A stretch of DNA of 64,000 nucleotides from the NCBI GenBank assembly GCA_030647195.1, contig JAUSKD010000010.1, forward strand, positions 197-64,196. The letters are read 5' to 3'. Of this stretch, positions 5,946-58,810 are shown one piece after another. The notes under the pieces are model-generated. The model was not told the origin of the DNA and did not search any database. It saw nothing but the letters and a program-made list of their open reading frames with translations. A program made the position numbers and the translations under genes. The first letter of the stretch is position 1. Each line of letters begins with the position of its first letter. Source of the stretch: Candidatus Peribacter sp. Lineage in GTDB: Bacteria > Patescibacteriota > Gracilibacteria > Peribacterales > Peribacteraceae.

Positions 5946-8900
5946 CTACCCTCTGAAAACTGTTGAATTCACAGCGCTGTCGGGGGACTCCACCCACGTC
6001 CAGACTGAGGAGGAGGCGTTGTCACGATCCTTCCAGCGAAGGAAGCTCTTCGTCGGGAGGGACATGGGGCCGAAGTCCGTACGACGCGGGTCCGAGAAAT
6101 TATTGAGCGATACCTGCAGGATGCTTGATCCGCCGGACGACGCGGTCGTATTACTATTCGTAATGTTGCCGAGCAGTGCAAGGGTGATGGATCCCCCGGA
6201 GTCAATCGTCGAATTCACAGCACTGGTCGATGGCATGGAGCACTGGACGAGAAAGACACCCGTGACCGTTCCGGTGAGCGCCGTGCCCTGCAGGGAATAG
6301 GGCAGACACATCTCGCGCTGGCTCATGCTCGCCGCCTTGTTATAAATCCTGAAACCCGTGGCATCCAGTGCAACGTTGGTCGCGTTCACGGTGAAGATCA
6401 GGTCTGACAGCTCGGCCTGGTTTAAGCCATTCTTGGAATTGGCGTTCGGTGAAGCAGCGAAGGCAAATGACCCAATCTCTCGATCGGCTCCACTCGGAAC
6501 GGTACCGGTCGCCTGCCCGCCATTCGCAATGGACACGATCTTTGCGAGAACCGTTGTGTTAAAGTTTCCAACTACACGGACATTCATAGAAGCCGCAGTC
6601 GTTCTTCCAACGAAGATCTCGCCCTCTGCGATCATATCACCATTGTTTATGAGCAGTTCGTTCGACGAGATCAACCCACGGGCACGTACGGAAGTCGGCA
6701 GTGTCACAGAATCGATAAAGACGGCAATGGTGTCTCCACTCACGGCACCGTTTACGTCACTCTTCATCCGGGGTTTGACGAGCAGCTTGATGTCGCTTCC
6801 CTTCGGCACAACCAGTTGCTGGCTGTTCATACTGAAACAGAAGGTGCCGGCTGCGTACTCAGAGTCGCAATACCCGCTGGTGGCCAGAGACTGCGTTGCT
6901 CCTTCTTGCCAGAGTTCGAAAGAGTCCACGGAATTCGCCTGTCCTCCCGATGCAGTGAGCACGAGGGCCGTGACATCGATATCTTCATTCTCCGCATGGA
7001 GCTTGACGCGCAAAATGGGCTCATTGAGCGTACCGGCAAGCAGTTGGCGGGCGCCGATGGTCTGCGAGTCTAAGGTCACGTACAGATCACCCTGCCTGTG
7101 CAGCGAGAAGAGGGTGGAATTCACGGTGGTGAGAGACATCTCACAGCTCTGACTATTGGTGTTGCAGAAGCCATTCGTGCTCAAGCCCACGAGATCCCTA
7201 CCGGTGAGAGCGTCTTCACCCCCGATGGAATTGAACTGAAGTTGCAACTGGGGGCCCGTGAAGGAGCTAGCAATATCCGCATGCACCTCGAAGACGACAG
7301 ACGGAGCGGTATCGACAAACCCGTTGCCGCAACTGCCTGTGGGCAAACAGCGACAGTTCACACAGGTCATTCCGGTATCGCACCCAGAGCCGTCACACTC
7401 CTCTCCGGGATCCGGCAGACCATTGCCGCAGACTGGTCCTCCAGCACAATCTTTCAGACAACTGCATTTGTCTTCAGTACTGGCATCACACGTCCCGTCT
7501 CCGCAGGTCTTCCACCAGTTTTCTATACAGGTCCCGATGGAACCGTCGGACGTGGAGACGCACTCGTTTCCTGCCAGCACACTGTTCGGCTTGATGCCGG
7601 CATTTTTGCTGCAGCACTCCGTGGGGCCGAATACGGGGGATCCATAGACTCTCTTGCCATCCGGTGCGCAACGTTGTTCGGAAGAGACCGACGAGAAGGC
7701 AGAAGACGATGAAGACGGTCCGCACTGTGAAGGCTTGCAGAGGCAGGTGCCGAGTTCGCAAATTCTGCCGCCCGTACAGACGAATCCAACTTCGCACTCT
7801 TCAGGAGACTCAATGCGGCCATTACCGCAGACAACCGGTTCGGGCCTGCACGCTCCATCACTACAGCCATTGGGACACTTCACCACTTCGTTGGTGTGGT
7901 AGACCCCATCGCAGAAATGTTCGACGAGGTATCCCTTTTTCGCGTAGGGATTCGTGTCATCACCGCAAATATCGTCGCCTTCGTAGACTTCACCAGTAGC
8001 AGGACTGACGCCGACTGTGTGGCCCTTCACGCCGTAGATCTTGCCACCATCGGAATCCTTGCAGAAAGCTAAGGAAGAGGCGGAAGAATACGAGGAACTT
8101 GATCCTACACATCGCGCGCACTTGCCTCTGCACGCAGCAGTTCCGCAGGAGGTCGCGCTGTACTCGGGGGTTGATCCATCGCGGCAATCGATATGATCCG
8201 CATTAAAGCATCGGCCATTGGAACACATGGCAAGACAGGAATAGCCGGGAGGACACAGTTGCGTGGGCTGGCTGGTATCGCACTGATTACTGATGCTGCT
8301 GCTGCTCCTGAACCACGCCACGGAAGAACTGCTGCTCATTCGGGGCTGAACGCAGGTGCCGCTGCACACGTTCCGGCAGGCAACACCGGGCGGGCACGTA
8401 ATGTGGTTACAGACTCCGTACTTCGTGGAACAGACGAGCGAAGAGGGACAATCGCTGGGCGAAATACAGCGCGTTCCCTCCGCCTGTATCTGGCAGGTGT
8501 CGGAACAGCCATCACCCTTTACGAGGTTTCCGTCGTCACATTTCTCGTTGGTCTGCACGATGCCATCCCCGCACGCCGCGACGCGCTTCACGGTGACGAG
8601 CGTGCTGCAGCCGGTGCCATTCGAGCGGCAGAGTTTCACACGCTGGCCTTCGACAAGAGGAATGTCGGAAACACTTCGCGTAACCGACTCGTTCATGTTG
8701 CAGAAGAAGCTGCCGGTGTGCAGAGCCTGGCCCTGTTCGCTCATGAGCGTGGCGCATTCTGAGAATGACTTGGCGTACGAGACGCGCACATCTGACCGTT
8801 CCAGCACAACGGAACGGAGCAGGGCTTCGCGGCAGGCGCCATCCTCACAACCCAGCGCGCACGTAACCATGTTCGGGTAGGTCACCTGGCCGTAACTGAA

Positions 8901-9623
8901 GGGCGACGGGCAGTATCCCTCGAGCAGTTTCATGGGGTCCGCAGGAACCGAGGCAGGACGATTGGCCCAATCCTTGAGACAGGTATCCGTCCACGCGAGG
9001 AAGGTGCGCGCGCCCATACGGACGTTCGTGGTGATGCCTTTCACAGAGCCGTTCCTGCCCGCATCACTGTCGGTGCAGCGACTGCCAATATAGAGCGGAG
9101 TGACCAGTTGTCCTTTCAGGGACGTGCCCGGAGTGGTGCAGCGGCAGCCGGTGCACACCTGGCCATCACGGCAATTGGCATTGGTTTCGCATTCCTCGGC
9201 CCCGGGGAGCAGATAATCCATATCAAAGGTCACCGAATCGTTCGTGGGGGTGGCGGTCTTCAGAAGCGTATCGACCACGCGGTCACCGTCCGTGTCCACC
9301 CACAGAGAATAGGTTTGGGCATCGGTGGGCTTGCCCTGGGTGGTCGAGAAGGTTGCCCGGTTGAATCGAACGCCACTGGGTTGCTCCGCGCGCGCCTCGA
9401 AACGCAGCATCGTGACGTTCTTTTGGTTCGAGACGACCGTATCGGTGGTTGCGAGGGCTTTTTGCGAAACGGTCAGTTTCACCCCCGGCACATCGGTGAT
9501 GATCTGGGCAGTCGGTCGCAGCATCACGCGATTAAGTGCGAAGAGAACGATAACGGCGCACAGTAAAAAAAGCAGAAGGAGCGGGAGCTTGATCCTTCTG
9601 GGCGGAGTTGAAGAACGTGCCAT
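5946..9623 (-). CDS. large N-terminally anchored extracellular protein with Cys-rich central region and beta-rich flanks
   Basis: ATG c9623 (MARSSTPPRRIKLPLLLLFLLCAVIVLFAL is a signal-anchor). The central part has CGDGIVQTNEKCDDGNLVKGDGCSDTC, CGNGRIESPEECE and CGNGLPDPGEECDG, which are Myxococcus cysteine-rich repeat-type (TIGR02232-like), plus many other Cys knots. There is no C-terminal TM. Confidence 0.8.
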   Translation of the reverse strand: MARSSTPPRRIKLPLLLLFLLCAVIVLFALNRVMLRPTAQIITDVPGVKLTVSQKALATTDTVVSNQKNVTMLRFEARAEQPSGVRFNRATFSTTQGKPTDAQTYSLWVDTDGDRVVDTLLKTATPTNDSVTFDMDYLLPGAEECETNANCRDGQVCTGCRCTTPGTSLKGQLVTPLYIGSRCTDSDAGRNGSVKGITTNVRMGARTFLAWTDTCLKDWANRPASVPADPMKLLEGYCPSPFSYGQVTYPNMVTCALGCEDGACREALLRSVVLERSDVRVSYAKSFSECATLMSEQGQALHTGSFFCNMNESVTRSVSDIPLVEGQRVKLCRSNGTGCSTLVTVKRVAACGDGIVQTNEKCDDGNLVKGDGCSDTCQIQAEGTRCISPSDCPSSLVCSTKYGVCNHITCPPGVACRNVCSGTCVQPRMSSSSSVAWFRSSSSISNQCDTSQPTQLCPPGYSCLAMCSNGRCFNADHIDCRDGSTPEYSATSCGTAACRGKCARCVGSSSSYSSASSLAFCKDSDGGKIYGVKGHTVGVSPATGEVYEGDDICGDDTNPYAKKGYLVEHFCDGVYHTNEVVKCPNGCSDGACRPEPVVCGNGRIESPEECEVGFVCTGGRICELGTCLCKPSQCGPSSSSSAFSSVSSEQRCAPDGKRVYGSPVFGPTECCSKNAGIKPNSVLAGNECVSTSDGSIGTCIENWWKTCGDGTCDASTEDKCSCLKDCAGGPVCGNGLPDPGEECDGSGCDTGMTCVNCRCLPTGSCGNGFVDTAPSVVFEVHADIASSFTGPQLQLQFNSIGGEDALTGRDLVGLSTNGFCNTNSQSCEMSLTTVNSTLFSLHRQGDLYVTLDSQTIGARQLLAGTLNEPILRVKLHAENEDIDVTALVLTASGGQANSVDSFELWQEGATQSLATSGYCDSEYAAGTFCFSMNSQQLVVPKGSDIKLLVKPRMKSDVNGAVSGDTIAVFIDSVTLPTSVRARGLISSNELLINNGDMIAEGEIFVGRTTAASMNVRVVGNFNTTVLAKIVSIANGGQATGTVPSGADREIGSFAFAASPNANSKNGLNQAELSDLIFTVNATNVALDATGFRIYNKAASMSQREMCLPYSLQGTALTGTVTGVFLVQCSMPSTSAVNSTIDSGGSITLALLGNITNSNTTASSGGSSILQVSLNNFSDPRRTDFGPMSLPTKSFLRWKDRDNASSSVWTWVESPDSAVNSTVFRG

Positions 9624-16475: not shown

Positions 16476-16550
<75 letters not shown>

Positions 16551-17012: not shown

Positions 17013-20000
17013 ATGGCAAAAATAGAAAACGCGAAGAAGCCCTTCGCCATTTTTGTTCTGTCGCTTCTTCTGCTCTCGCAACCGGGAGTCTCTGCGCTCT
17101 GGGCTCAGACTGCCGTGATCGCGCAAGAGACCGGTGCCGCGTCATCCGAAGCGGAATCATCTTCGGCCGCTTCGAACCCGCAGACTCCTTCGGTTTCAGA
17201 CATGAGAGCCATGACCAGCGCCATGGCGAGCACGACTGCGGGCGGAGGCAATTTTACGTGGCAGATTCTGTGTGGAGAGCCCGGGACGAACAGGAGCATC
17301 GCCTGCGATGACGCCTGTCGCCCGTGCATCAGTGATACTTACTTCTTCTGGAGAAAATTCGATCTGCAGAAAATCGGCTTCTACTACACGGACGGATCGG
17401 GACATCGCCAGCTCCTTCCGCCGTTTTCAACCGGAGGGAATATCTGCAGAGACGGCGTGTCAGCGATAAACGGGGGCGGAACGGTTCCCACAGGAATCAC
17501 CCCTCAGGGCCTGTATACCGAGTGGAATGCCTACGGTCATGTCTACACGTTGTACTCCGATACGCATGCTGCAATCGTGTGCCCGAGAGGCGGCGATCGC
17601 ACGGATTACTACTGGGACGACCAGGGGAATCCCGGCACGCACAATGACGGCCATGTGATCATCAACTACACGCCAGCACCCTCCAGTCAGTGCTCCGATG
17701 GCATCGATAACGACGGAGACGGCGCAGCGGATTTTCCGAATGATTACTCCTGCTCCACGACCACGGACAATGACGAAACGAATCCCAGGTCTCAGTGTCA
17801 GGATGGAGTGGATAATGACGGCAACGGATACACTGATTACCCTTCCGATGCAGGATGCAGCTCGCAGCAGGACAACACGGAGAGCGGGGGCCAGCAGCAG
17901 TACCAGTGTAACGACGGTATCGACAACGACGGGGACGGAGCCGCCGACTATCCGAACGATTTCTCCTGCTCGTCTGCCACGGACAATGATGAAACGAATC
18001 CCAGATCTCAGTGTCAGGACGGAGTGGATAATGACGGCGACGGCGTCACGGACGGACTGGATCCGGGTTGCAGCGGCAATCAGGACAACGACGAGCGCAA
18101 CATCTGCCCTGTGGGCACTTCTACGAGCACCTGCCGCTGTGCCACCAATGCCGATTGCACCGCGCCCAATACCTGCCAGAGCGGATACTGCCGGCCGGTC
18201 AGCAGCCAGTGCTCCGATGGCATCGATAATGATGGCGATGGCGCTACGGATTACCCGGCCGATTTCAGCTGTTCCTCAGCAACGGATACGGACGAGACCA
18301 ATCCCAGGGCCCAGTGCCAGGATGGATCGGATAACGATCACGACGGTCTCTCAGACTACCCCAATGATCCGGGCTGCAACTCAGCCCAGGACAATGACGA
18401 AACGAATGTGGGTACACCGTCCTGCACCCAGCCTGTCAGTGCATCCGTGTCCTTCAACTCCTTCAACGCTCCGTGGAATTACGGTACATCGTGCGCCCAA
18501 CCGCCCGTTGCCGTTGCGACGAACCTGCATGCCGGCGACGTTGTGCGACTCACAGGCACGACGGGTGGGGTCTGCGGACGCGAGTACCCGCGTGCGGGAT
18601 CCTGTGTCAGCGATACCTCCGGCTCCATTTTCGGAGACTGTGATGACGAGGGAACCCAGATGTACTCCTGCACGGACAATACCTATTCCAAGGCGGGATT
18701 CTACGATGCCTCACATAATCTCATTGCCGAGCACAACATCAGTGCGTTCAACGCGAGCGTCACGGTCCCTGCGGGAGCGACGGCGCTCTACGTATACTTC
18801 AAGGAATACAACCAGACCTACTACTACGACAACAACGGTGGATTCCGCTGCAATCTGAATTTCTCCATCACGGGCAACTGTCCTGCGCAGTGCAATGACG
18901 GCCTCGACAATGACGGTGATGGCGCCGCGGACTATCCCAATGACTTCAGTTGTTCCTCCGCAACGGATACCGACGAAACGAATCCCAAGGCCCAGTGCCA
19001 GGATGGCATCGACAACGACGGCGATGGCCGCATCGATGCCAATGATCTGGGGTGTACCGATTTTCAGGATAACGATGAATTCAATGCGTCCTCCTCTTCC
19101 TCATCATCCTCCTCCGTTCCGGGAACCGCACAGTGCAACGACGGCATCGATAATGACGGTGATGGCAAGATCGACGCTCTGGTCGAGCTGAGCCCCTCAA
19201 ACGGGCAATCGCGCGTGTGGTATGCCGATATGGTCGGTATTCGCACCTTCTACAACCAAATTGCTGCCCAACGTGGACTGCAACAGATTTCCACTGATTG
19301 GAACGGCCAGGGCATGGTCAGCAACGATGCGACGACAGCGGATAAGATCTGCGAGCTTGCCGGCTTCAACAACGTCGTCTCCCGTAACTGCTTCGAATAC
19401 GGCACAACCGGGCGCTGCAACTTCACGAGCTGCAGTAACAATACGATGGGTGTCTGGGGCGGATCCAACATGAATATTGTGAATGCATGCGGCTACACCT
19501 GGCTCGCCTCGCTCACCTGCCGCGATCGTCTGGCTGCCTGCAGTGATGGCATCGATAACGACGGAGACGGCAGAATCGACATGGCGGACACGGGCTGCGC
19601 AACGGTGAATGACAACAGTGAAATCATGCATGACCCGGACTGCACAGGACCGACGGATAACACCGAATCCTCCATTACGCAGTGCAACGACGGCATCGAC
19701 AATGACGGAGATGGAGCCGCCGACTACCCGAACGATTTCTCCTGCACCTCTCCCACGGATACGGACGAGACCAATCCCAAGTCCCAATGCCAGGACGGCA
19801 TCGACAACGATGGAGATGGTCTGTCCGATTACCCCTCCGATCCGGGATGCAGCTCGAGGCAGGATAATGACGAGCGCAATATCTGCCCCGCAGCGACGCA
19901 AACCTCCAACTGCCGTTGCGCAACCAATGCGGACTGTACGAACCCCGATACCTGCCAGAGCGGCATCTGCCGCCCGGTGTCGTACCAGTGCAACGACGGA

Positions 20001-23000
20001 ATTGATAACGATCAAGACGGTGCAACGGATTTCCCGAATGATTTCTCGTGCACGACTGCGACCGACAATGACGAAACCAATCCCAAGGCCCAGTGTCAGG
20101 ATGGCGTCGACAATGACGGCGATGGCCGCGTGGATTATCCGAATGATCTGGGATGTTCCAGCAGACAGGATAATACGGAGGCGGGTGAAGCCCAGTGTCA
20201 GGACGGCATCGACAACGACGGAGACGGCGCCGCCGACTACCCGAACGATTTTTCCTGCACCACTCCCACGGATACGGACGAGACCAATCCCAAGGCGCAG
20301 TGCCAGGACGGGATTGATAACGATGGAGATGGTCTGACGGACTATCCCAATGATCCGGGATGTTCCAGCCGTCAGGATAACGACGAACACAACATCTGCC
20401 CGGTGGCAACGCAGACAAGCACCTGCCGTTGTGCAACGAACGCAGACTGTACGAACCCGGATACCTGCCAGAGCGGCATCTGCCGTCCGGTGACGTACCA
20501 GTGCAACGACGGCATCGACAATGATGGAGATGGCGCCACGGACTACCCGGCGGACTTCTCGTGCTCCGGACCCACGGACAATGATGAAACGAATCCCAAG
20601 GCCCAGTGTCAGGACGGGATCGATAACGACGGAGACGGACGTGTGGATTATCAGAATGATCCGGGATGTTCCAGCAGACAGGACAACAATGAAGGAGACG
20701 AACCGCAGTGCCAGAACGGCATTGATGATGATCAGGACGGAGCCACGGACTACCCGGCGGACTTCTCGTGCTCCGGACCCACGGACAATGATGAAACGAA
20801 TCCCAGAGCGCAGTGCCAGGATGGAATCGACAACGACGGGGACAGTCTTGTGGACTATCCCGCAGATCCCGGCTGCTCCACTCGTCAGGATAACGACGAG
20901 CACAACATCTGCCCGGTGGCAACGCAGACGAGCACTTGCCACTGTTCCACGAATGCGGACTGCACCGTCCCCGATACCTGCCAGAGCGGCATCTGCCGCC
21001 CCCAGGGAGCCGATCTCTCCGTCTCAAAGACCGGACCCACCACGGTGGTCGCAGGCACGATCGTATCGTACACAGTGACAGCGACGAACGCCGGTCCGGC
21101 CACAGCCACGAACGTCGTGATCGCCGATGTCATTCCCTCGGGCCTGACCTTCAACGCCGGTCAGTCGACCGCAGGATGCGTGCTCAATGGAAATGGAACG
21201 AGTGTGCTGTGCAATAACTTCAGTCTGACAGCGGGCCAGAGCCGCACCTTCACGATTGTCTTCAATGTTCCTTCAACGCAAGCGTGCGGAGGGAACGCGG
21301 TGATCCAGAACGTGGCGACAGTCTCCAGTTCTTCACAGGATCCGAATACGGCGAACAATACGAGCCAGACGGTGACAACGGGGGTGTCGTGTCCGACACC
21401 GCAAGCCGATCTCTCGATTCAAAAATCAGGACCTTCCTCCGTGCTCCGCGGTGACGCTGTGACCTACACCATCACTGCAACGAACGCAGGCCCGAGTACC
21501 GCAACGAACGTCGTGGTGACCGATGTGATCCCGTCCGGTCTCACCTTTAACGCCGCCGGCTCTTCCGCGAGCTGCATCCTGAATGGCGCCGGAACGAGCG
21601 TGCTCTGCAACAACTTCAACCTGAACGCGGGCGAGAGCCGCACCTTCTCTCTCGTGTTCACCGCTTCCTCCTCGATGAGCTGCGGAGCAACCATCCGCAA
21701 TACCGCAGATGTCTCGAGTTCCTCGGTGGATCCCGTCAGTGCCAATAACCATAGTAATGAGGTGAGTACGTCCGTGACGTGCCCGCAGGCGGACGTGATG
21801 ATCGTGAAGAGCGGACCGCAGAGTGTCAATCGCGGCGGGAATATCCTCTACACGGTCACCGTCACGAACTTAGGTCCCCAGCGCTCCGATAACGTCGTCG
21901 TGGTGGACCGGCCGGAATCTATGGCAGGACTCACCTTTAGCGCGTCTCAGAGCGATACGGACTGTGTCCTGAACGGCACCGAAGTGCTCTGCAACAACAT
22001 CTCGCTGCAGGCCGGTCAATCCCGGACGTACAACATCGTCTTCACGGTTTCCCCCACCTTTACCTGCGGCAGTACGGTTGCCAATCGGGCGAATGCCAAT
22101 GTCTCGACCCCCGATCCTCACGGCGATAACAACTGGAGCGATCGCATTGTGACGACCATCAACTGTACGCAGTGCAATGACGGCATCGACAACGACCAGG
22201 ACGGCGCCACGGACTACCCGGCGGACTATAGCTGCAGTGATGCCAATGATAACGACGAAACGCTTCCCCGGGCCCAGTGCCAGGATGGCGTGGACAATGA
22301 CGGCGACCAGCTCGTCGACTACCCGAATGACCCGGGCTGCTCGAACAATCAGGACAATGACGAATCCAACATCGTTCTGAATCCGGATGCGTCCATTCAG
22401 AAATCAGGACCGACGACGGTCATCCGCGGCAACACAGTGAGCTACACGCTCACGGCAACCAACGTCGGCTCCGCGACGGCGCAGAACGTCGTGGTCTCCG
22501 ATAGCATTCCCTCCGGACTCACCTTCCAGGCAGGCGCCTCCTCACCCGAGTGCGTGCTGAATGGCGGCGGCACGAGCGTACTCTGCAATAACTTCTCGCT
22601 CGCTGTCGGCCAGACCAGAACCTTTACGGTGACCTTCACGGTGACCACGGCTGTTGCCTGCGGTGCCACCATTCAGAATACGGCGACGGTCTCGACCAGT
22701 AACGATGTCAATACTGCGAACAACTCGAGCCAGTGGAATACGGCCGTGCAGTGCGTTACGCCCCAGTGCTCCGATGGCATCGACAATGACGGCGATGGTG
22801 CGACGGATTATCCCAATGACTACAGCTGTGCCTCCCCCACGGATGATGATGAGTCCAATCCCCGGGCCCAGTGCCAGGACGGCATCGACAATGATCAGGA
22901 TGGCGCCATCGATTACCCCGCCGACATCGGCTGCACGTCCGCGCAGGACAATGACGAATCCAATCCCGCCACGCCCGATCTGTCGATCACCAAGACCGGT

Positions 23001-28016: not shown

Positions 28017-28039
28017 GCAATCGTCCAAAGCAGCAGAAT

Positions 28040-40063: not shown

Positions 40064-42400
40064 ATGACGACCCAAACGATCCTCCGGCGCTTTCTCCTCC
40101 CGACGATTCTGCTGGGGGCCGTCGTCGCCGTGCTCTCGTGGGAGCCATCGCATGTGTCACCCGGTTGGAAGGCTCAAGTGACGACCAGCTCGTCCTCCGC
40201 AGTCTGCGGCAATGGTGTACGCGATGGTACTGAAGAATGTGATTGTTACGGTGAGCAAAACCAATGGACCTGTAACAGTACGACACGATACTGCGATTGC
40301 CCTTCGCCCATCGGCAATGGAACCTGCACGTGTGTGAATGTTTCGTCGAGCTCCTCCTCCGCGGCATCCGTAGATTGTGCTCCGTGTACGAATGGCGGAT
40401 GTCAGACGTGCGCCGCCAACGCTCAGGATCCCCTGTGCGGAATTCCTCTGGCCAATGGTGGTACCTATGAATGTTTGGCAGCTCCCAATGCCAATTATAC
40501 GGTCTGTACCTGTCCGGCAGCCTCTTCTGCGACATCGTCCTCGCCATCAACCCAGAGTTCCGCAGCCAGTCAGGCATCTTCCGCTGCAGCAACTTCGCAG
40601 TCTTCCTCGGCTGTTGTATCTTCCCAGACTTCATCTGCCGCAGTGTCCTCTCAGGCCTCTTCCGTTCTCCCGCCTCAGAGTTCCTTCAGCTCGGCAGGTT
40701 CGGCGCCCAACGGCTCCGTCATCGGGATCGAAGCCGGGCTCTGCGCGCAGGTGAAGGCGGATCCCGTCACCGGCCAGAAGCTGGTGTACTGCTGTCTCGA
40801 TGAGGGTTTCATCTACCAGCGCGAAGCCAGCCAACAGGAATTCGAGCAGTTTGTGTCCCTGCTGAAACGTCTCGAAAGCATGTCGGCCAAAGATGCCAAA
40901 CCCATTTTCGATGTCCCCTATGACGGCAGCATTCACAGGAAGTACGGTTGGACCTCCCTCTGCGGAAAACAGATCCCCTGCGATGTGTGCTCCCAGGATC
41001 ACATCTGCGGCAACGGAGTGGTGGAAGCCACCGAGAAATGCGACGACGGCCCGCGCAATTCCGCCGAGACGCCGGACGTGTGCCGCATTGACTGCACGCT
41101 GCCCAAATGCGGAGACAGCGTGATTGACCGTCAGGCGGGCGAGGAATGCGACGACGGCAGGTTCAACGGCGATCAGCCCAATCGCTGCAGAACAGACTGC
41201 GTCCTTCCCCGGTGCGGCGACGCCATCATCGATTCCCTCAGCGGTGAAACCTGTGATACGGGAAGAGGCAATTCGGATACGCTGGCCAACAGCTGCAGAA
41301 GCAACTGTCAGTCCCCCCGCTGCGGCGACGGAGTGCAAGACTCGCACGAAGATTGCGATGACGGCAATCGGGCAGACAGTGACGGGTGCTCCTTCTACTG
41401 TGAATTGGAAAGAAGACAGACCTCCTCTGCTGCTGTCACCGTCCTCCCGACGCTGCGCTGCGGGAACGGAATCACGGAACCCGGGGAGGAGTGCGACACC
41501 GGTTCGAATAACGCAAACGTCCCCAACAACTGCAGGCAGAATTGCATCCTGCCACGCTGCGGAGACCGCATTCAGGACACCGGCGAGGAGTGCGACGACG
41601 GCAATAACGCAAACGGAGACGGCTGCACTGCCCTCTGTATGCGGGAACTCGTCCTCTCGCTGACAAATGTCTGCGGGAATCAGATCATCGACCCCGGGGA
41701 GGAATGTGATGCCGGCAGCGGTAACGCCAACATTCCCGACCACTGCCGCTTCGACTGTCGCTTCCCCACCTGCGGCGATGGCATCAAGGATACGAACGAA
41801 CAGTGCGACGACCGCAACCACCTGGATGGTGACGGATGTACGAAAGACTGCTTCAGCGAATTCTGCGGCGACGGCTTCAAAGAAATGGGCGAAGAGTGCG
41901 ACGATGGCAACCTGATCAGCGGGGATGGCTGCAGCCGCTTATGTCAAAAAGATACAGGGACGCCCGTTTCCGCCCTCATCATCGAGACGGGTTCCCTGGC
42001 CATGCGCTCTTCCAGGCCGCCGCTTCGCGGCGCAGCCTCCAGCAAGGCGTCGACCGCCGCATCTTCCAAGGTCTCCACAGCACAGCAGAAATCCTCTGCA
42101 CGGATGGTGAATCCGGTCGCCACTGTCTCGTCTTCGTCCTCCGCCTCGAGCGTGTTCTCCGTCACGGGCCAGGCGTTCTCGATAGCCTCATCCGCCCCGC
42201 AAATGGCTTCCACCACCCTGAACGCGCAGGTGATTCCCTTCCCCGCCGCAGCCACCGTTCCCGTATCCGCGTACTACTATCCGCAGCAACCGGTCTTCAC
42301 TACGACCACCCTGAATGACACCGGTCCTGCCGCCTTGAGCATCGTCGCCATGGGGGCGGCCGCGGGCCTCGCGTGGGCAAGACGGAAACGAAGGATGTAA
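40064..42400 (+). CDS. Cys-repeat envelope protein (778 aa) with the same C-terminal sorting-like signal
   Basis: ATG 40064 (MTTQTILRRFLLPTILLGAVVAVL), 31 nt after the previous stop. It has Ser/Ala-rich linkers and about 10 TIGR02232-type repeats. The tail reads LNDTGPAALSIVAMGAAAGLAWARRKRRM. Confidence 0.85.
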   Translation: MTTQTILRRFLLPTILLGAVVAVLSWEPSHVSPGWKAQVTTSSSSAVCGNGVRDGTEECDCYGEQNQWTCNSTTRYCDCPSPIGNGTCTCVNVSSSSSSAASVDCAPCTNGGCQTCAANAQDPLCGIPLANGGTYECLAAPNANYTVCTCPAASSATSSSPSTQSSAASQASSAAATSQSSSAVVSSQTSSAAVSSQASSVLPPQSSFSSAGSAPNGSVIGIEAGLCAQVKADPVTGQKLVYCCLDEGFIYQREASQQEFEQFVSLLKRLESMSAKDAKPIFDVPYDGSIHRKYGWTSLCGKQIPCDVCSQDHICGNGVVEATEKCDDGPRNSAETPDVCRIDCTLPKCGDSVIDRQAGEECDDGRFNGDQPNRCRTDCVLPRCGDAIIDSLSGETCDTGRGNSDTLANSCRSNCQSPRCGDGVQDSHEDCDDGNRADSDGCSFYCELERRQTSSAAVTVLPTLRCGNGITEPGEECDTGSNNANVPNNCRQNCILPRCGDRIQDTGEECDDGNNANGDGCTALCMRELVLSLTNVCGNQIIDPGEECDAGSGNANIPDHCRFDCRFPTCGDGIKDTNEQCDDRNHLDGDGCTKDCFSEFCGDGFKEMGEECDDGNLISGDGCSRLCQKDTGTPVSALIIETGSLAMRSSRPPLRGAASSKASTAASSKVSTAQQKSSARMVNPVATVSSSSSASSVFSVTGQAFSIASSAPQMASTTLNAQVIPFPAAATVPVSAYYYPQQPVFTTTTLNDTGPAALSIVAMGAAAGLAWARRKRRM

Positions 42401-49970: not shown

Positions 49971-50046
49971 TGGTACCCCCGGCAGGACTCGAACCTGCGG
50001 CCAACAGGTTAGAAACCTGCTGCTCTATCCACTGAGCTACGGGGGC
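49971..50046 (-). tRNA. tRNA-Arg (anticodon UCU), CCA encoded
   Basis: Reverse complement is GCCCCCGUAGCUCAGUGGAUAGAGCAGCAGGUUUCUAACCUGUUGGCCGCAGGUUCGAGUCCUGCCGGGGGUACCA, with anticodon loop UUUCUAA. Confidence 0.9.
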
Positions 50047-51484: not shown

Positions 51485-52981
51485 TTAGCAGTTCAGGGGA
51501 TCGACCCCGCCGCCGCCAGCGACCACGATCACTTCGATCTGGAACCCTGCACTGAGCAGGGCATTCCGGGTCAAGGTGTCAATCGTGAACGCAGACAACG
51601 AGGGCACCTCGACGCGCAAACTGGACGCGAAGAAGTGCAGTCCCCGGGCTTCGCCGGCGATGTCGACATAGGCCGGAACGCGGCCCAGAGGATCGACATA
51701 CGTCGATGAGGTGACGGTCACAGTGGTTCCACGGAGGAGCCACCATTGACCCCACGGGTCGTACTGCTGATCGACGGTGCTGATCGACGACCCGTCACCC
51801 TCGAGAAAATCCCCAGGGTTCTTGTCGTTGAAGCGGTCACCGAAGACGCCATCGAGGTGATACACGAAGTCGTTCTCCGTGCCTCCCCAGACCTGGTCCA
51901 ACCCGTCCCCTCCGGTGATCTGGTCACTGCCCGGCCCTCCGTAGAGCCAGTCATTGCCGTCATTGCCGAAGATGACATCGTTGGCATGGCCACCCTTCAA
52001 CGTGTCGTTCCCGCCCGCACCGTGCAACTCCGTGGTCCCTGCGAAGAGGGTCATATCCACGCAATCGTCGTATTGCGAGCCGTAGAACACGAAACGGGAG
52101 ACCCCCTCAACCGTCCACGTGGATCCGCTCCACGTAATGTTGACGGTCGTGGGACCAGTGGCAGTGATGCAAGCACCAGCACCCTGCTGGCTCCAGTCCA
52201 CCGTCAGCGTGCCAGACTGGATCGTCCACGGCGGGGTGACGCGGGTGGGATCAGGCGTGATCAAGATGTCAGGGGTCCGCCAGTCGTTATCAAGGCTCAG
52301 GGTATCCTCACCCGGCTGGTAGTAGTACCAATCCGAGACGTGACACCCGCCCACGTACCGGTCGTATCCCCATCCACCGTACAAGGCATCGGCTCCGCCG
52401 TCGCCGTTGAGGTAATCGTTCCCGCTCATGCCCTTGAGGGTATCGTTGCCATTACCCCCGTACAGGTAGTCATTGTTGGATCCTCCAACAATGAAATCGT
52501 TCCCATTATCCCCGTAAGCGTACAACTGTCCGGACCCAAACTGCTGGATCACGTCGTTGCCATCGCCTCCGCGGACGATGAGTTTGCCTGAGCCGTAGGC
52601 GGTGATGGTATCGTTCCCGCGATCGCCCTTCACCGTAACGGGAATGTTGACACCCGCTCCGATGACGATCGTGTCATTGCCTTTGTAGGCTTTGACCACG
52701 ATCGCGTTGATGGTCTTAGACGCCGGCGTTTGCCAGTGCGTCCCGTTGACGTTGAAGTCGATTGCGTTGGACGGCAATTTCTGGACGCTGATCGGGACGT
52801 TACTCGTGTACGTCTCCGTCAACGTTGCCGTCGTCCCGCTAATCTTCAGGGTGACTCCAGCGGACAACAAGTCCAGCTGTTCGAGGTTTTCAAACCTCGC
52901 GATTCGGGTCCGTGAGGACCCCGTCGAGCGCGAATCTTTGCGCTTCCGCTGAAACAACTTCAGCCTTTTCTCGCACACCAT
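51485..52981 (-). CDS. secreted protein with hemolysin-type (RTX) calcium-binding repeats
   Basis: It has GGDGNDVIQ, GDNGNDFIVGGSNNDYLYGGNGNDTLKGMSGNDYLNGDGGADALYGG, and GAGGNDTLKGGHANDVIFGNDGNDWLYGGPGSDQITGG. ATG c52981 is preceded by GAAGGAG with a 6-nt spacer. The N-terminus has a basic stretch followed by RFENLEQLDLLSA. Confidence 0.8.
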   Translation of the reverse strand: MVCEKRLKLFQRKRKDSRSTGSSRTRIARFENLEQLDLLSAGVTLKISGTTATLTETYTSNVPISVQKLPSNAIDFNVNGTHWQTPASKTINAIVVKAYKGNDTIVIGAGVNIPVTVKGDRGNDTITAYGSGKLIVRGGDGNDVIQQFGSGQLYAYGDNGNDFIVGGSNNDYLYGGNGNDTLKGMSGNDYLNGDGGADALYGGWGYDRYVGGCHVSDWYYYQPGEDTLSLDNDWRTPDILITPDPTRVTPPWTIQSGTLTVDWSQQGAGACITATGPTTVNITWSGSTWTVEGVSRFVFYGSQYDDCVDMTLFAGTTELHGAGGNDTLKGGHANDVIFGNDGNDWLYGGPGSDQITGGDGLDQVWGGTENDFVYHLDGVFGDRFNDKNPGDFLEGDGSSISTVDQQYDPWGQWWLLRGTTVTVTSSTYVDPLGRVPAYVDIAGEARGLHFFASSLRVEVPSLSAFTIDTLTRNALLSAGFQIEVIVVAGGGGVDPLNC

Positions 52982-55188: not shown

Positions 55189-55213
55189 AGAAGATCTTCA
55201 GGAGGAACGTTTA

Positions 55214-55248: not shown

Positions 55249-55254
55249 CGGTAT

Positions 55255-55283: not shown

Positions 55284-55328
55284 TACATATTCTTCATTTA
55301 TCCGAAAGATTGCTACCATGCACCTCTG

Positions 55329-56759: not shown

Positions 56760-56820
56760 GAAATAGGATGAGGGTTGAGGTTAGGGATCAGCACTGATCC
56801 TAGCCCTATCCCTATAGCCT
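56758..56820. terminator. imperfect hairpin of GGGAT/AGGG-type short units between convergent pyk and Cys-repeat gene
   Basis: The core ggttagggatcag-c-actgatcctagcc is flanked by ataggatgaggg / ccctatccctat. Confidence 0.4.
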
Positions 56821-56821
56821 G

Positions 56822-58810
56822 TTACTTCCACTTGTGCCACGGCATTTCTAATTCGTCCAGAGGAATATCGTCCAGCGACACCCCGGGACCGGACACCTGC
56901 TTCGAGAAAGAGAAGAGCGACCGCAGATGGCGGCGGAACAGAATGCCAGCCGCAATGATGATCAGAAGCAACGCTGCTCCGACGGCGGAAAGCGCAGTGG
57001 AATACTGCTCGAAGAGAGCAACGGACGTGCACTCGTTCGTGCAACCGCTGCCTCCGTCACACTGTTCGGCAGAATCAACGACATGATCGCCGCAGATCGG
57101 TTTGCTGCACGCAAGTCTGCAGGCATTGGGGAGCGTATCGGAATTCGACAGGCCATCATCACACTCCTCTCCCGGCTGCAGGACGCCATCCCCGCATTTC
57201 TCCAGGCGGCAGGCTGCGCTGCAGCCATCTCCGTCTGCGGCATTGCCGTCATCGCATTGCTCCCCGGCCTCCAGAACATTGTTCCCGCAGGTCGGCAGTC
57301 TGCAGGTGTTCGGACAACTATCGTCATTCACCTGGTTGCCATCGTCACACTGTTCCTTGCCTTCCACCACTCCGTCGCCGCAGGAGGGAAGCTTGCAGCT
57401 GTTGGGACACTCGTCGAACGAATTGCGGTTGCCGTCGTCACATTCCTCGCCCGGCTGCATCACCCCGTCGCCGCAACGGGCCTTCTGACAGGAATTGTTG
57501 CATTGGTCATCCGGGATGCGATTGCCATCGTCGCACTCTTCGCCTGCCTGCGTAACCGCATCCCCGCAGCGGGATTTCTGACAGCCGTTCGTACAGGTGT
57601 CATCGTTGACCTGGTTGCCGTCGTCGCACTCTTCGCCCCGTTGCATCACGCCATCACCGCACTGCGGCAGCGTGCAGCTGTTCGAACAGGTATCGGTGTC
57701 GTTCCGGTTTCCGTCGTCACACTCCTCCGTTCCCTCGCGGATGCCATTGTCACACACCGGCAACCTGCAGTTGTTCGGACAGGGATCCCAGTTGTTGAAA
57801 TTTCCGTCGTCACACTGCTCACGGCCCTCCATGACGCTGTCGCCGCACACCGAGAGCGCGCAGTCATTCGGACAATCATCAAGGTTATTGCGATTTCCGT
57901 CGTCGCACTCTTCGCCGGTCTGCACGACATTATCGCCGCAGCGGGATGCCTTGCATAGATTGCTGCAAGCATCGTCGTTCACGCGATTGCCGTCATCGCA
58001 CTCTTCATTCTGCTGCACGAATCCATCGCCGCACCGTGGACGTGTGCACTGATTCGTGCAGCTGTCCTCCACCACCTGATTGCCGTCATCACACTCCTCC
58101 CCAGTTTCAACCCTGCCATTGCCGCAGAGCGGAGCCGAAGAAGACGATGCCGCATCGGCGGGATGCAGGGCGGCGGAAGACGACGAGGCAGCCGCGCTGC
58201 TCGTGGACTCGCTGGCACTCACACTCTGAATGGAACTGGCGGTCGCCGAAGAGGATGCTTCAATCGAAGATACCTGTGAGGAAGCTGAAGAAGAGACGCT
58301 GGATGAAGACGGGCAGGCCGCTTTGAATTTCCACTGGCATCCGCCTTCGCACAGCCCCTCTGCATCGCAACTGGGCGCTGCGCACGTGCGACCGCACGTA
58401 CTCTCCACATACTGCACTTTCGTCGTGAGCAGATTGGTCTTTGGATCCAGGATATAGACCTCCTGAACGGACGGCTCGCACTCCTCACCCAGATACGGTG
58501 TGATCGTGGCATCGCCGCAGAAGAGCGCCATGCAGGTCATGGAACACGAACTCAAACCGTTGAACCGGCCCAGATCGCACTGTTCGCCCTCCGCCTCCTG
58601 CAGAATACTGTCTCCGCAATGCGGGGGCTTGCTGCGCGCAGAGGAAGACGAACCCGGCCGCACGGGGCATCCCGGCGATCCGTAGGGCAATCCGACGCAT
58701 TCCGATGGCGCGGCATCCTGTGCGCTGCCGGTCGTCCGCAGAGAAAACCCGAGAGAGACCAGTCCCACGAGACACAGCACGACAGCCGGGAGATGTTGTT
58801 TTCTTTGCAT
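56822..58810 (-). CDS. type I membrane protein with about 12 tandem Myxococcus-type cysteine-rich repeats
   Basis: ATG c58810 (MQRKQHLPAVVLCLVGLVSLGFSL is a signal peptide). It has about 12 repeats of about 31 aa each, CGDxVxQxGEECDDGNxxNxDxCxNxCxxxR. It then has one TM segment (ALSAVGAALLLIIIAAGILF) and a cytoplasmic tail of about 45 aa. Confidence 0.85.
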   Translation of the reverse strand: MQRKQHLPAVVLCLVGLVSLGFSLRTTGSAQDAAPSECVGLPYGSPGCPVRPGSSSSARSKPPHCGDSILQEAEGEQCDLGRFNGLSSCSMTCMALFCGDATITPYLGEECEPSVQEVYILDPKTNLLTTKVQYVESTCGRTCAAPSCDAEGLCEGGCQWKFKAACPSSSSVSSSASSQVSSIEASSSATASSIQSVSASESTSSAAASSSSAALHPADAASSSSAPLCGNGRVETGEECDDGNQVVEDSCTNQCTRPRCGDGFVQQNEECDDGNRVNDDACSNLCKASRCGDNVVQTGEECDDGNRNNLDDCPNDCALSVCGDSVMEGREQCDDGNFNNWDPCPNNCRLPVCDNGIREGTEECDDGNRNDTDTCSNSCTLPQCGDGVMQRGEECDDGNQVNDDTCTNGCQKSRCGDAVTQAGEECDDGNRIPDDQCNNSCQKARCGDGVMQPGEECDDGNRNSFDECPNSCKLPSCGDGVVEGKEQCDDGNQVNDDSCPNTCRLPTCGNNVLEAGEQCDDGNAADGDGCSAACRLEKCGDGVLQPGEECDDGLSNSDTLPNACRLACSKPICGDHVVDSAEQCDGGSGCTNECTSVALFEQYSTALSAVGAALLLIIIAAGILFRRHLRSLFSFSKQVSGPGVSLDDIPLDELEMPWHKWK

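What the first reader, a model, noticed from the sequence alone, without database searches (positions are those of the whole stretch)
5946..58810. About 41% of the window encodes six large repeat-modular, Cys/Asp/Ser-rich envelope proteins
The genes at 5946-9623, 17013-28016, 34402-40032, 40064-42400, 51485-52981 and 56822-58810 sum to 26,136 nt by my coordinates. All six have signal peptides or signal-anchors. Four share the same roughly 31-aa repeat, CG[ND]G-x5-GE[EQ]CDDGN-x4-D-x-C-x3-C (Myxococcus cysteine-rich repeat type). One adds 24 acidic Cys-bounded metal-binding-like motifs and 17 DUF11 repeats, and one has RTX repeats. They are embedded among minimal housekeeping genes rather than in an obvious island: no mobility genes and no compositional break visible by eye. 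Such investment suggests a dedicated cell-surface adhesion or host/partner-interaction apparatus stabilised by disulfides and Ca2+. I regard this as the best candidate for an undescribed system in the window.
Basis: partly seen in the sequence, partly recalled or inferred. Interest (0 to 1): 0.75.

Follow-up and report, generated by a model that had tools for sequence, protein, structure and literature searches.

The report
Peribacter cysteine-rich surface repeat proteins
Six large repeat-built proteins fill 41% of this stretch of a tiny groundwater bacterium (Candidatus Peribacter); they are most likely surface proteins for attachment, a feature already reported for its sister species in 2016 and not a new coordinated system.

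Summary
The six ORFs exist, total 26,136 nt (40.8%), and carry the named repeats: DUF4215/TIGR02232 in A, C, D and F; 17 DUF11 plus 24 acidic Cys-bounded repeats (NF033662) in B; RTX in E. Two details fail. E has no signal peptide and is not Cys-rich, and PF11617 is not matched.

The window is a Candidatus Peribacter sp. MAG contig, syntenic with Ca. P. riflensis genes 458-499. B, C, D and F correspond by position to genes 471, 482, 483 and 499. Anantharaman et al. 2016 listed three of them (471, 482, 499) as large, Cys-rich proteins, described for the set as mostly signal-peptide-bearing, many extracellular and possibly for attachment. A and E have no counterpart at these positions.

The genes are not an operon or a conserved neighbourhood; only the C-D pair recurs as a tandem.

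- C and D carry a lineage-specific C-terminal sorting signal, xTGPAA-hydrophobic-WMRRRR.
- B carries an LPxTG-like signal followed by a spacer.
- F belongs to a conserved single-pass membrane family whose cytoplasmic tail ends DDIPLDEIEMPWHKW.
- A is a beta-sandwich surface protein with a roughly 580-aa Cys-rich insertion.

Function is untested. Interest is modest.

The parts
5946..9623 (-). Gene A (1225 aa). It has an N-terminal signal-anchor, a beta-sandwich domain interrupted by a roughly 580-aa Cys-rich insertion, and a conserved 484-aa C-terminal tandem beta-sandwich region.
   Evidence: ORF. NCBI calls it a 'DUF4215 domain-containing protein', 1225 aa. One TIGR02232 unit. Hydrophobic segment near the N-terminus.
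7389..9131 (-). Cys-rich insertion of A (aa ~165-745). It holds one to two DUF4215 units plus Cys knots that match no family.
   Evidence: In the consensus of 18 homologues the N-terminal domain (LRFEA...LWVDTD...V.F) runs straight into VVFEVH. No Pfam match for the insert.
5949..7400 (-). Conserved C-terminal region of A, modelled as tandem beta-sandwich domains.
   Evidence: 18 homologues; all that carry a source name (4 of 18) are Peribacteraceae. Nine GTDB species at 40-43% identity. AF2 pLDDT 82.4. Foldseek best matches are AgI/II C-domains, integrin alpha legs and MSCRAMMs, E 1e-9 to 1e-5, but TM-scores are only 0.1-0.3.
17013..28016 (+). Gene B (3667 aa), a giant surface protein. Order: signal peptide, three family-less globular domains interleaved with acidic repeats, a DUF11 stalk, then an LPxTG-like C-terminal signal.
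   Evidence: NCBI calls it 'hypothetical protein Q7S29_01245', 3667 aa. Its positional counterpart is P. riflensis gene 471 (3861 in the length column), annotated 'likely cell surface'.
17691..21011 (+). Acidic Cys-bounded repeat region of B. It has 20 of the 24 units of form C-x-DG-x-DND-x-DG-xxD-xxD-xx-C and four 6-Cys knots. Domains B2 (18408-18890) and B3 (19158-19541) are embedded in it.
   Evidence: Regex. NF033662 at 328 bits. The unit is widespread, with 3484 hits. B3 model has pLDDT 80 and no PDB fold match.
21012..27821 (+). DUF11 stalk of B, 17 repeats of two subtypes: about 130 aa with 4 Cys, and about 116 aa without Cys. Four further acidic units lie within it at aa 1721-1790 and 1919-1985.
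   Evidence: PF01345 17 stretches, TIGR01451 17 stretches, TIGR04226 6 stretches. Subtypes.
27822..28013 (+). C-terminal signal of B: YFPQTG, a roughly 35-aa spacer, a hydrophobic segment, then RKFLIGF.
   Evidence: Three DUF11 relatives end LP[VQK]TG, spacer with FLxP, TM, basic tail. No curated sorting-signal model matched.
34402..40032 (+). Gene C (1876 aa). It has a signal-anchor, Ser/Gly-rich linkers, family-less Cys modules, an array of DUF4215 units, and a TGPAA-type C-terminal sorting signal (39940-40029).
   Evidence: Positional counterpart of P. riflensis gene 482.
37165..38481 (+). Family-less Cys modules of C: four copies of CC[RK]Y...C[RK][DN]CxxC[YF] and two roughly 80-aa 12-Cys modules that each start with a DUF4215-like CGNG..CD core.
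   Evidence: Regex. No significant Pfam match.
40064..42400 (+). Gene D (778 aa), 32 nt downstream of C. It has a signal peptide, a 'YCC' domain (40700-41008), DUF4215 units (41006-41959) and a TGPAA-type sorting signal (42311-42397).
   Evidence: NCBI calls it 'DUF4215 domain-containing protein', 778 aa. The YCC domain has only 19 representatives among 1.84 billion proteins. 13 family members plus a C-like neighbour end with the same signal. The C-D tandem recurs in L031.
51485..52981 (-). Gene E (498 aa), an RTX-repeat protein with two blocks of nonapeptides. It has no N-terminal signal, 1% Cys, and no counterpart at this position in P. riflensis.
   Evidence: PF00353 at 102 bits; all RTX toxin and protease family models are far below cut-off. 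No hydrophobic segment. Only repeat-level relatives in metagenomes. Synteny.
56822..58810 (-). Gene F (662 aa), a type I membrane protein. Order: signal peptide, conserved Cys-rich N-domain (58271-58717), Ser/Ala linker, 11-13 DUF4215 units (57011-58126), TM helix and cytoplasmic tail (56825-56995) ending SLDDIPLDELEMPWHKW (56828-56878).
   Evidence: 57 of the top 120 hits (486-707 aa) share the TM plus tail motif. The identical protein occurs in Logan SRR13727527. Positional counterpart of P. riflensis gene 499, which also has 63 Cys.

Best explanation
The window comes from a Candidatus Peribacter sp. (class Peribacteria, Peregrinibacteria, CPR). It encodes six independently transcribed modular proteins, of which only C and D are adjacent. 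Five of them are most likely cell-surface proteins. They belong to the set of large, Cys-rich extracellular proteins already reported for Ca. Peribacter riflensis.

Proposed mechanism, with each step marked:
1. Export by Sec through N-terminal hydrophobic signals for A, B, C, D and F. This is inferred from sequence. A signal peptidase I gene lies at 29753-30373.
2. Folding outside the cell into small modules held by disulfides. There are 4 Cys per 31-aa DUF4215 unit, 2 per acidic unit and 6 per knot. The Cys counts are shown; the disulfides are inferred.
3. The DxDxDG-type acidic units of B and the RTX repeats of E probably bind Ca2+. For RTX this follows from family knowledge. For the acidic units it rests on the motif only.
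4. Retention on the cell by four different anchors. B uses an LPxTG-like signal with a spacer. C and D use a lineage-specific xTGPAA-hydrophobic-WMRRRR signal. Both are presumably sortase substrates, since P. riflensis encodes two sortases. F uses a TM helix with a conserved cytoplasmic tail motif. A uses an N-terminal anchor.
5. Long repeat arrays (17 DUF11 units in B, DUF4215 arrays in C, D and F) and Ser/Gly-rich linkers act as stalks. They hold out family-less distal domains that are the likely binding parts. The role proposed is attachment to other cells or surfaces, and it is inferred.

The genes are not one co-ordinated machine.
For: - Taxon and gene calls: Candidatus Peribacter sp., contig 64,252 bp; relatives in Peribacteria MAGs.
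- Repeat families above curated cut-offs.
- Synteny with P. riflensis genes 458-499, and prior description of 471, 482 and 499 as Cys-rich proteins of a set described as mostly signal-peptide-bearing, many extracellular.
- N-terminal hydrophobic segments in five of six proteins.
- TGPAA signal conserved in 16 tails from proteins less than 50% identical to each other.
- LPxTG-plus-spacer tails in B relatives.
- F tail motif in 57 of 120 hits.
- A's C-terminal region models as tandem beta-sandwiches resembling Gram-positive adhesin stalks.
- The DUF4215 unit matches the solved PAPP-A module at residues 866-897, E 1.5e-6.
- A 12-repeat DUF4215 protein sits in diatom adhesive trails, and that protein is hit P0061.
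- TIGR04226 matches inside the DUF11 stalk.
Against: - There is no experimental evidence for localisation, disulfides, Ca2+ binding, sortase cleavage or any ligand.
- The sorting signals match no curated model. The best score is 17.5 bits against cut-offs of 16-29.
- B's LPxTG-like motif is FPQTG and sits about 35 aa from the hydrophobic segment, which is atypical.
- No sortase gene is in the window.
- The DsbA-like gene next to C lacks the CxxC motif (read from the translation).
- The acidic repeat has no significant match to any known Ca2+-binding family.
- The Foldseek matches for A have low TM-scores (0.1-0.3), so they show a generic Ig-like array, not a specific adhesin.
- The putative tip domain B3 has no fold match, so nothing points to a ligand.
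- E has no export signal and may not belong with the others.
Confidence: 0.6

Rival explanations
1. The proteins form a structural envelope coat. They would be a protective or rigidifying layer, disulfide-cross-linked and possibly glycosylated, similar to an S-layer or matrix, and would not bind specific partners.
For: - The 2016 paper itself offers rigidity as an alternative and reports S-layer genes and heavy investment in surface sugars.
- Some homologues of A's C-terminal region carry SLH domains.
- One Peribacteria sortase is fused to SLH domains.
- Long Ser/Gly/Ala-rich linkers are typical O-glycosylation sites.
- PMT-family glycosyltransferases lie near an F orthologue.
Against: - The architectures are stalk-plus-tip, not self-assembling lattice proteins.
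- The proteins are very diverse in length between close relatives (B 3667 versus about 3860 aa, C 1876 versus about 1751, D 778 versus about 694). A and E are present or absent within the genus. This looks more like interaction or arms-race proteins than a core coat.
- No SLH domain occurs in any of the six.
Confidence: 0.22
2. One reading: the six genes together make one dedicated, previously undescribed adhesion or host-interaction apparatus.
For: - High local density, 41% of the window.
- A shared repeat type in four of the six proteins.
- The C-D tandem recurs in another genome.
Against: - The genes are separated by unrelated housekeeping genes on both strands.
- F orthologues sit in a different, conserved neighbourhood in three other genomes.
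- A homologues are not syntenic.
- A and E are missing at these positions in P. riflensis.
- The proteins use four different anchoring modes.
- The phenomenon was published in 2016.
Confidence: 0.06
3. The proteins act mainly as extracellular metal buffers or scavengers, using their many Cys and Asp residues for Ca2+, Cu, Zn or other metals.
For: - Very high Asp and Cys content.
- DxDxDG-like motifs.
- RTX repeats in E.
- A ZIP metal transporter is encoded nearby at 4329-5192.
Against: - PF11617, the MopE metal-binding motif, is not matched.
- Cys residues occur in even, regularly spaced sets typical of structural disulfides. The same unit sits in the solved PAPP-A entries; that its cysteines are disulfide-bonded there is my recollection, not checked here.
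- Ca2+ in RTX-type and TSP-type repeats is structural, by general knowledge of those families.
Confidence: 0.05
4. The long repeat ORFs are assembly artefacts, meaning collapsed or chimeric repeats.
For: The source is a metagenome-assembled genome, and repeat-rich genes are error-prone in assembly.
Against: - Repeat copies are only 60-84% identical at the DNA level.
- The reading frames are intact over as much as 11 kb.
- The identical F protein was assembled independently in another dataset.
- Positional counterparts of similar size exist in closed P. riflensis genomes.
Confidence: 0.02

Closest known systems
Large cysteine-rich extracellular proteins of Ca. Peribacter riflensis (Anantharaman et al. 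2016, PeerJ 4:e1607; genes 471, 482, 483, 499)
   Same: - Same genus and the same gene order across about 40 genes.
- B, C, D and F correspond by position to genes 471, 482, 483 and 499.
- F and gene 499 both have 63 Cys in about 662 aa.
- The paper reports the same weak similarity to Myxococcus Cys-rich repeats and pappalysin, and the same attachment hypothesis.
   Different: - Lengths differ: B 3667 versus about 3860 aa, C 1876 versus about 1751, D 778 versus about 694.
- A and E have no counterpart at these positions.
- The passages and tables of the paper I read mention none of the C-terminal sorting signals, the F cytoplasmic tail motif, the insertion in A, or the DUF11 and acidic-repeat anatomy of B.
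DUF4215 / TIGR02232 'Myxococcus cysteine-rich repeat' proteins, including the single unit in human PAPP-A and PAPP-A2 and the diatom adhesive-trail protein Ca5255
   Same: - The same 31-aa unit, CG[DN]G-x5-GE[EQ]CDDGN-x4-D-x-C-x3-C, with 4 Cys.
- HMM scores are far above cut-off.
- A profile of the window's units finds PAPP-A residues 866-897.
- Ca5255 is a direct hit.
   Different: - The Peribacter proteins combine the array with lineage-specific N-domains and anchors: the TGPAA signal, or a TM helix plus conserved tail.
- At least two Myxococcota-type hits instead end in Cys-containing MYXO-CTERM-like tails (P0038, P0104).
- PAPP-A has one unit inside a metalloprotease.
Sortase-anchored Gram-positive surface proteins with Ig-like stalks (DUF11 / B. 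anthracis repeat proteins, RrgB-type pilins, AgI/II and MSCRAMM adhesins)
   Same: - A signal peptide at one end and a tripartite C-terminal signal at the other.
- A long array of Ig-like domains.
- TIGR04226 matches.
- Fold-level similarity of A's C-terminal region to AgI/II, MSCRAMM and pilin domains.
   Different: - No curated LPXTG-type model is matched.
- B has FPQTG and a roughly 35-aa spacer.
- C and D keep only TG followed by PAA.
- Isopeptide bonds were not tested.
- There is no sequence-level membership in AgI/II or MSCRAMM families.
RTX (repeats-in-toxin) Ca2+-binding proteins secreted by type I systems
   Same: E has two blocks of GGxGxD nonapeptides. PF00353 scores 102 bits.
   Different: - Every RTX toxin, lipase or protease family model scores far below its cut-off, for example 76 bits against 625.
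- No ABC, MFP or TolC genes are in the window.
- The organism belongs to a lineage without a typical outer membrane (general knowledge, not tested here).

Membership tests
DUF4215 / TIGR02232 cysteine-rich acidic repeat | HMM score above the curated cut-off (Pfam 27 bits; NCBIfam 20.8 bits) | tested here: met
   Scores are Pfam/NCBIfam bits: A 33.9/46.5, C 114.5/322, D 92.6/149.3, F 217.9/260.2.
DUF4215 / TIGR02232 cysteine-rich acidic repeat | A unit of about 31-38 aa with four conserved Cys and a CDDGN core, usually in tandem | tested here: met
   In 21 aligned units C1, E10, C12, D13, D14, N16, D21, C23 and C27 are invariant. Arrays occur in C, D and F; A has only 1-2 units.
DUF11 (PF01345 / TIGR01451) | HMM above cut-off, in tandem copies | tested here: met
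   B has 17 stretches, 931.5 bits against 24.6 and 557.6 bits against 24.
Acidic double-disulfide repeat (NCBIfam NF033662) | HMM above the cut-off of 41 bits | tested here: met
   B scores 327.7 bits over 18 stretches. 24 units by motif.
   Not listed for B at E<=0.01. A single repeat pair gives 7.4 bits, E=7.
RTX Ca2+-binding repeat (PF00353) | HMM above the cut-off of 23 bits | tested here: met
   E scores 102.2 bits over 5 stretches.
RTX toxins, serralysins and other T1SS substrates | A family-level model above cut-off, and adjacent T1SS genes | tested here: not met
   Best is NF046115 at 76 bits against 625; NF033943 gives 63 against 1000. No transporter genes were found among the window ORFs scanned.
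LPXTG-type sortase substrates | An LPXTG pentapeptide followed directly by a hydrophobic segment and a basic tail; a curated sorting-domain model above cut-off | tested here: inconclusive
   C and D have the tripartite layout but only TG is kept (xTGPAA). B has FPQTG plus a roughly 35-aa spacer, while its relatives have LP[VQK]TG. The best curated hits are NPXTG at 17.5 bits against 23.5 and GVDTG_CTERM at 16.8 against 29.
LPXTG-type sortase substrates | A sortase encoded in the same genome | not testable with these tools
   There is no sortase in the window. P. riflensis has two, genes 264 (SLH plus sortase) and 350. SLH-sortase genes are present in three other Peribacteria genomes.
Cys-rich extracellular protein set of Ca. 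Peribacter riflensis | Positional correspondence, large size, elevated Cys and an export signal | tested here: met
   Gene order 458-499 matches the window. B = 471, C = 482, D = 483 and F = 499, with Cys at 3.7-9.5%. D's counterpart 483 is not in Table S4. A and E are not part of the published set at these positions.
Intramolecular isopeptide (RrgB D2 / CnaB-type) domains | HMM match plus a Lys-Asn(Asp) pair with a catalytic Glu or Asp in the fold | tested here: inconclusive
   TIGR04226 scores 209 bits over 6 stretches. A Lys near the start and an Asn near the end recur in the repeats. Geometry was not modelled.

The most novel reading that the evidence does not exclude
Peribacteria may have their own surface-protein sorting and signalling logic, with two parts.

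(a) A lineage-specific C-terminal signal (L-x-x-TGPAA, about 12 small or hydrophobic residues, G-[FL]-[AG]-W-M-R-R-[RK]-R) marks the C/D family of DUF4215 proteins. The idea is that one of the two Peribacteria sortases cleaves it, one of which is fused to SLH domains. B-type DUF11 giants would use a separate LPxTG-plus-spacer signal.

(b) The F family would be a single-pass receptor-like protein. Its nearly invariant cytoplasmic tail, DDIPLD[EQ]IEMPWH[KR]W, would dock a conserved intracellular partner. That would couple what the cell surface touches to the inside of an episymbiotic cell.
Probability: 0.3. Interest if true: 0.55.

Novelty: new member of a known kind. Interest (0 to 1): 0.3.

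Why it matters
CPR bacteria such as Peribacteria are thought to live attached to other cells, yet no attachment molecule has been shown for this lineage. These proteins take up about 8% of a 1.25-Mb genome in the sister species (my arithmetic from the published table) and 41% of this window. They also vary between close relatives, so they are the obvious candidates for host contact.

That idea has been in print since 2016, so the finding itself adds another species, not a new concept.

What could move the field is the finer anatomy found here. There are two conserved C-terminal sorting signals and a conserved cytoplasmic tail motif. These give concrete peptides for sortase assays and pull-downs. 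They also give simple sequence tags for listing the surface proteome of Peribacteria genomes.

Tried and rejected
- Exact look-ups of ClpP and pyruvate kinase found nothing. The source was identified later through cluster look-up.
- Single-sequence phmmer of F and B against the PDB gave nothing. Only a repeat-unit profile found PAPP-A.
- The acidic repeat as an EF-hand, MopE or other known Ca2+ or Cu family gave only non-significant hits. Its resemblance to thrombospondin type 3 repeats is from memory only and was not recovered by any search.
- I considered that F belongs to the division (dcw) cluster, because in the window it follows rsmH and an ftsL-like gene. I rejected this. In three other genomes the orthologue sits between a receiver-only response regulator and tsf/rpsB.
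- I considered that C's N-terminal domain is the same as D's 'YCC' domain. BLASTP gave E=11.
- Curated C-terminal sorting models (GVDTG, NPXTG, MYXO-CTERM, PEP-CTERM, IPTL) are all below cut-off.
- Flanking repeats or mobility signatures around A and E: none found.
- E relatives in metagenomes show only RTX-level similarity.
- Fold assignment for B3: no PDB match, best E 0.88.
- Pfam on ten family-less segments gave nothing significant.
- The DsbA-like neighbour of C as the oxidase for these proteins is unlikely, because the CxxC motif is missing.

Full report

All six ORFs are present. NCBI's annotation of the same contig gives the same lengths for A, B and D. The six genes sum to 26,136 nt, 40.8% of the window.

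- The Myxococcus cysteine-rich repeat (PF13948/TIGR02232) is above cut-off in A (1 unit), C (9), D (4-5) and F (11). A regex for the core finds 2, 11, 9 and 13 copies.
- B has 17 DUF11 stretches. It also has 24 acidic Cys-bounded units: 23 by regex plus one variant at aa 262. NCBIfam already models this unit as NF033662 (328 bits against a cut-off of 41).
- E has RTX repeats (PF00353, 102 bits).
- PF11617 is not matched.

The six proteins are 5.4% Cys, 7.8% Asp and 12.2% Ser. The other 33 proteins of the window are 1.1%, 4.7% and 6.0%.

Two statements fail. E has no N-terminal hydrophobic segment, and it has only 1% Cys.

Assembly collapse is unlikely:
- Repeat copies are 60-84% identical at the DNA level.
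- An identical F protein was assembled independently in another run.
- Closed genomes of the sister species have genes of similar size at the same positions.

**2. Where does it come from, and is it already known?**

The exact proteins are on record as a Candidatus Peribacter sp. MAG, on a contig of 64,252 bp. Relatives of A occur only in Peribacteria/Peregrinibacteria MAGs.

The published gene table of Ca. Peribacter riflensis (PMC4736985) shows the same gene order as the window from gene 458 (wecA) to gene 499. Many lengths are identical: TsaE 339, RarA about 425, ClpP 215, signal peptidase about 206. I identified the window's own flanking genes.

B, C, D and F correspond by position to genes 471, 482, 483 and 499, whose length-column values are 3861, 1752, 695 and 663. 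Gene 471 is annotated 'repeated DUF - likely cell surface'. Gene 499 has 63 Cys, the same number as F.

[quoted passage not shown] It also notes the following:
- weak similarity to Myxococcus Cys-rich repeats and to pappalysin;
- one disulfide-bond formation protein;
- a sortase;
- a 14-gene cluster of such proteins elsewhere in the genome.

**3. Is it one system?**

No. The genes lie on both strands, separated by tRNA-modification, translation, cell-wall and central-metabolism genes.
- Only C and D are adjacent, with a 32-nt gap. That tandem recurs in another genome (L031).
- F orthologues in three other Peribacteria genomes sit in a different, conserved neighbourhood: YchF, an SLH-sortase, a TrwB-like ATPase, a PLD, a receiver-only response regulator, then the F orthologue, then EF-Ts and S2.
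- Homologues of A in nine species share none of the window's neighbours.
- In P. riflensis, genes 462 and 463 are separated by about 70 bp where A sits in the window. An 80-aa ORF lies where E sits. A and E are therefore presence/absence differences within the genus.
- No flanking repeats or mobility genes explain these differences.

**4. Anatomy of each protein**

*A.* The consensus of 18 homologues shows that an N-terminal beta domain (LRFEA...LWVDTD) normally continues directly into VVFEVH. Those homologues that carry a source name are all Peribacteraceae. In A a Cys-rich block of about 580 aa (aa ~165-745) is inserted at that point, and it matches no Pfam family.

The conserved C-terminal 484 aa model confidently (pLDDT 82.4) as tandem beta-sandwiches. 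The best PDB matches are the C-terminal domains of streptococcal AgI/II adhesins, integrin alpha legs and MSCRAMMs (E 1e-9 to 1e-5). TM-scores are low (0.1-0.3), so this is a generic adhesin-stalk resemblance.

*B.* The order along the protein is:
- a signal peptide;
- three globular domains without any family, B1, B2 and B3;
- 24 acidic units arranged as a/b pairs, four of which are followed by a 6-Cys knot;
- 17 DUF11 domains of two subtypes, one of about 130 aa with 4 Cys and one Cys-free of about 116 aa, with TIGR04226 isopeptide-domain matches;
- a tail reading YFPQTG, a roughly 35-aa spacer, a hydrophobic segment, then RKFLIGF.

Three DUF11 relatives end LP[VQK]TG, a spacer containing FLxP, a TM segment and a basic tail. 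B3 has about 25 homologues, usually at the N-terminus of acidic-repeat proteins. It models well (pLDDT 80) but has no PDB fold neighbour (best E 0.88). The acidic unit itself is widespread, with 3484 hits including Myxococcota and Patescibacteria.

*C and D.* These have Ser/Gly-rich linkers, several Cys modules without a family and DUF4215 arrays. The family-less modules include four CC[RK]Y modules in C.

D's 'YCC' domain has only 19 representatives among 1.84 billion proteins. Thirteen family members, a C-like neighbour in L031, and C and D themselves all end with one conserved signal. Its consensus is L..TGPAAL...AAGAA.G[FL][AG]WMRR[RK]R.

Curated sorting-domain models score below cut-off. 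The best are NPXTG at 17.5 bits against 23.5 and GVDTG_CTERM at 16.8 against 29.

*E.* It has two RTX blocks. It matches no RTX toxin or protease family, has no export signal and has only repeat-level relatives.

*F.* The order along the protein is:
- a signal peptide;
- a conserved Cys-rich N-domain;
- a linker;
- 11-13 DUF4215 units;
- one TM helix with a basic juxtamembrane stretch;
- a cytoplasmic tail ending SLDDIPLDELEMPWHKW.

Fifty-seven of the top 120 hits (486-707 aa, about 40% identical) share this architecture and a nearly invariant tail, DD[IV]PLD[EQ]IEMPWH.

**5. How it most likely works**

- *Shown:* the repeat families, the even Cys counts per module, the N-terminal hydrophobic segments in five proteins, and the conserved C-terminal signals and tail motif.
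- *From family knowledge:* RTX repeats bind Ca2+, and DUF11 and Ig-like arrays form extended stalks in sortase-anchored proteins.
- *From a search plus recollection:* a profile of the window's DUF4215 units matches residues 866-897 of solved PAPP-A structures at E 1.5e-6. That this module is disulfide-bonded in PAPP-A is my recollection and was not checked here.
- *Inferred:*
  - Sec export, with oxidative folding outside the cell;
  - Ca2+ loading of the acidic units, on motif evidence only (searches are non-significant);
  - sortase cleavage at the TG of B, C and D (P. riflensis has two sortases);
  - presentation of the family-less distal domains for binding.

The only experimental hint for any DUF4215 array is the diatom adhesive-trail protein Ca5255, which is hit P0061.

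The DsbA-like gene that lies divergent to C (33423-34214) lacks the CxxC motif, so it is probably not the oxidase.

**6. Rivals**

- A structural or protective coat is the main alternative. Supporting points are SLH links, glycosylation-type linkers, and the 2016 paper's own mention of rigidity.
- Metal scavenging is unlikely, because the Cys residues are patterned as structural sets and PF11617 fails.
- A single apparatus is contradicted by the lack of conserved linkage (section 3).
- An assembly artefact is contradicted.

**7. Verdict**

'Surface, probably attachment, disulfide- and Ca2+-stabilised' matches the best current reading and the literature. 'A dedicated, undescribed system' does not.

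Novelty: a new member of a known kind. The new, testable details are the TGPAA-type sorting signal, the B-type LPxTG-plus-spacer signal, the F-family cytoplasmic tail motif, the domain insertion in A, and the A/E indels within the genus.

Noticed in passing
window 33423-34214 (-): A membrane-anchored DsbA-like protein (Thioredoxin_4, E 3.6e-9) lies divergent to gene C. Where the CxxC active site should be it reads ...VEYAALTSLYTQ.... It is conserved in position with P. riflensis gene 481. It is probably redox-inactive, which is odd next to a protein with 132 Cys.
   Followed up: partly
window 56828-56878 (-); proteins P0003-P0112: A nearly invariant cytoplasmic tail motif, S[IL]DD[IV]PLD[EQ]IEMPWH[KRS]W, follows the TM helix of F. 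It occurs in 57 of the top 120 hits (486-707 aa, about 40% identical overall). No NCBIfam model matched the tail on its own, and Pfam on full-length F found only DUF4215. It suggests a conserved intracellular partner.
   Followed up: partly
L011 132-1403, L012 1976-3100, L013 2602-3768; P. riflensis genes 264 and 350: Peribacteria encode a sortase fused to SLH (S-layer homology) domains. It sits in a conserved block with YchF, a TrwB/VirD4-like ATPase (DUF8128), a PLD and a receiver-only response regulator next to the F orthologue. P. riflensis has a second sortase (gene 350) next to a 628-aa pappalysin-like protein (gene 349).
   Followed up: partly
window 5946-9623 and 51485-52981, compared with the P. 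riflensis gene table: Genes A and E have no counterpart at these positions in Ca. P. riflensis. There, genes 462 and 463 are about 70 bp apart, and an 80-aa ORF lies between frr and gene 495. No flanking repeats or mobility genes were found.
   Followed up: partly
window 19158-19541 (+), B residues 716-843: Domain B3 is an alpha/beta domain of about 128 aa with eight Cys. It has about 25 homologues, usually at the N-terminus of acidic-repeat proteins. The AF2 model has pLDDT 80 and no significant PDB fold match (best E 0.88).
   Followed up: yes
window 37165-38481 (+): C contains four copies of a 6-Cys module, CC[RK]Y-x(20-30)-C[RK][DN]CxxC[YF]. It also has two roughly 80-aa 12-Cys modules that begin with a DUF4215-like core. 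Neither matches any Pfam family.
   Followed up: partly
window 45918-47135 (+): A 405-aa protein has a signal peptide, many G-G-x-[VL] repeats that look like a bactofilin-type beta-helix, and a polytopic membrane C-terminus. It has no Pfam hit at E<=0.001. It is another uncharacterised envelope protein.
   Followed up: no
window 52840-52981 (-), N-terminus of E: E begins with a basic stretch followed by RIARFENLEQLDLLSAG, not a hydrophobic signal peptide. From memory this resembles the LEPR-XLL type N-terminal motif of some Planctomycetes proteins. No NCBIfam model matched it.
   Followed up: no
window 16476-16550 (-), 49971-50046 (-): tRNA-Gln lies upstream of B, and tRNA-Arg overlaps the start of the longest ORF for uridylate kinase. 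Both tRNAs are at the same places in the P. riflensis table. The real pyrH start is therefore downstream of 50046.
   Followed up: partly
window 19197-20942 (-), 22542-23750 (-), 26757-28028 (-), 40631-41821 (-): Long antisense ORFs (about 400-580 aa) lie inside B and D. They have Arg-rich, low-complexity translations and look like shadow ORFs of GC-rich repeat genes, not genes.
   Followed up: no
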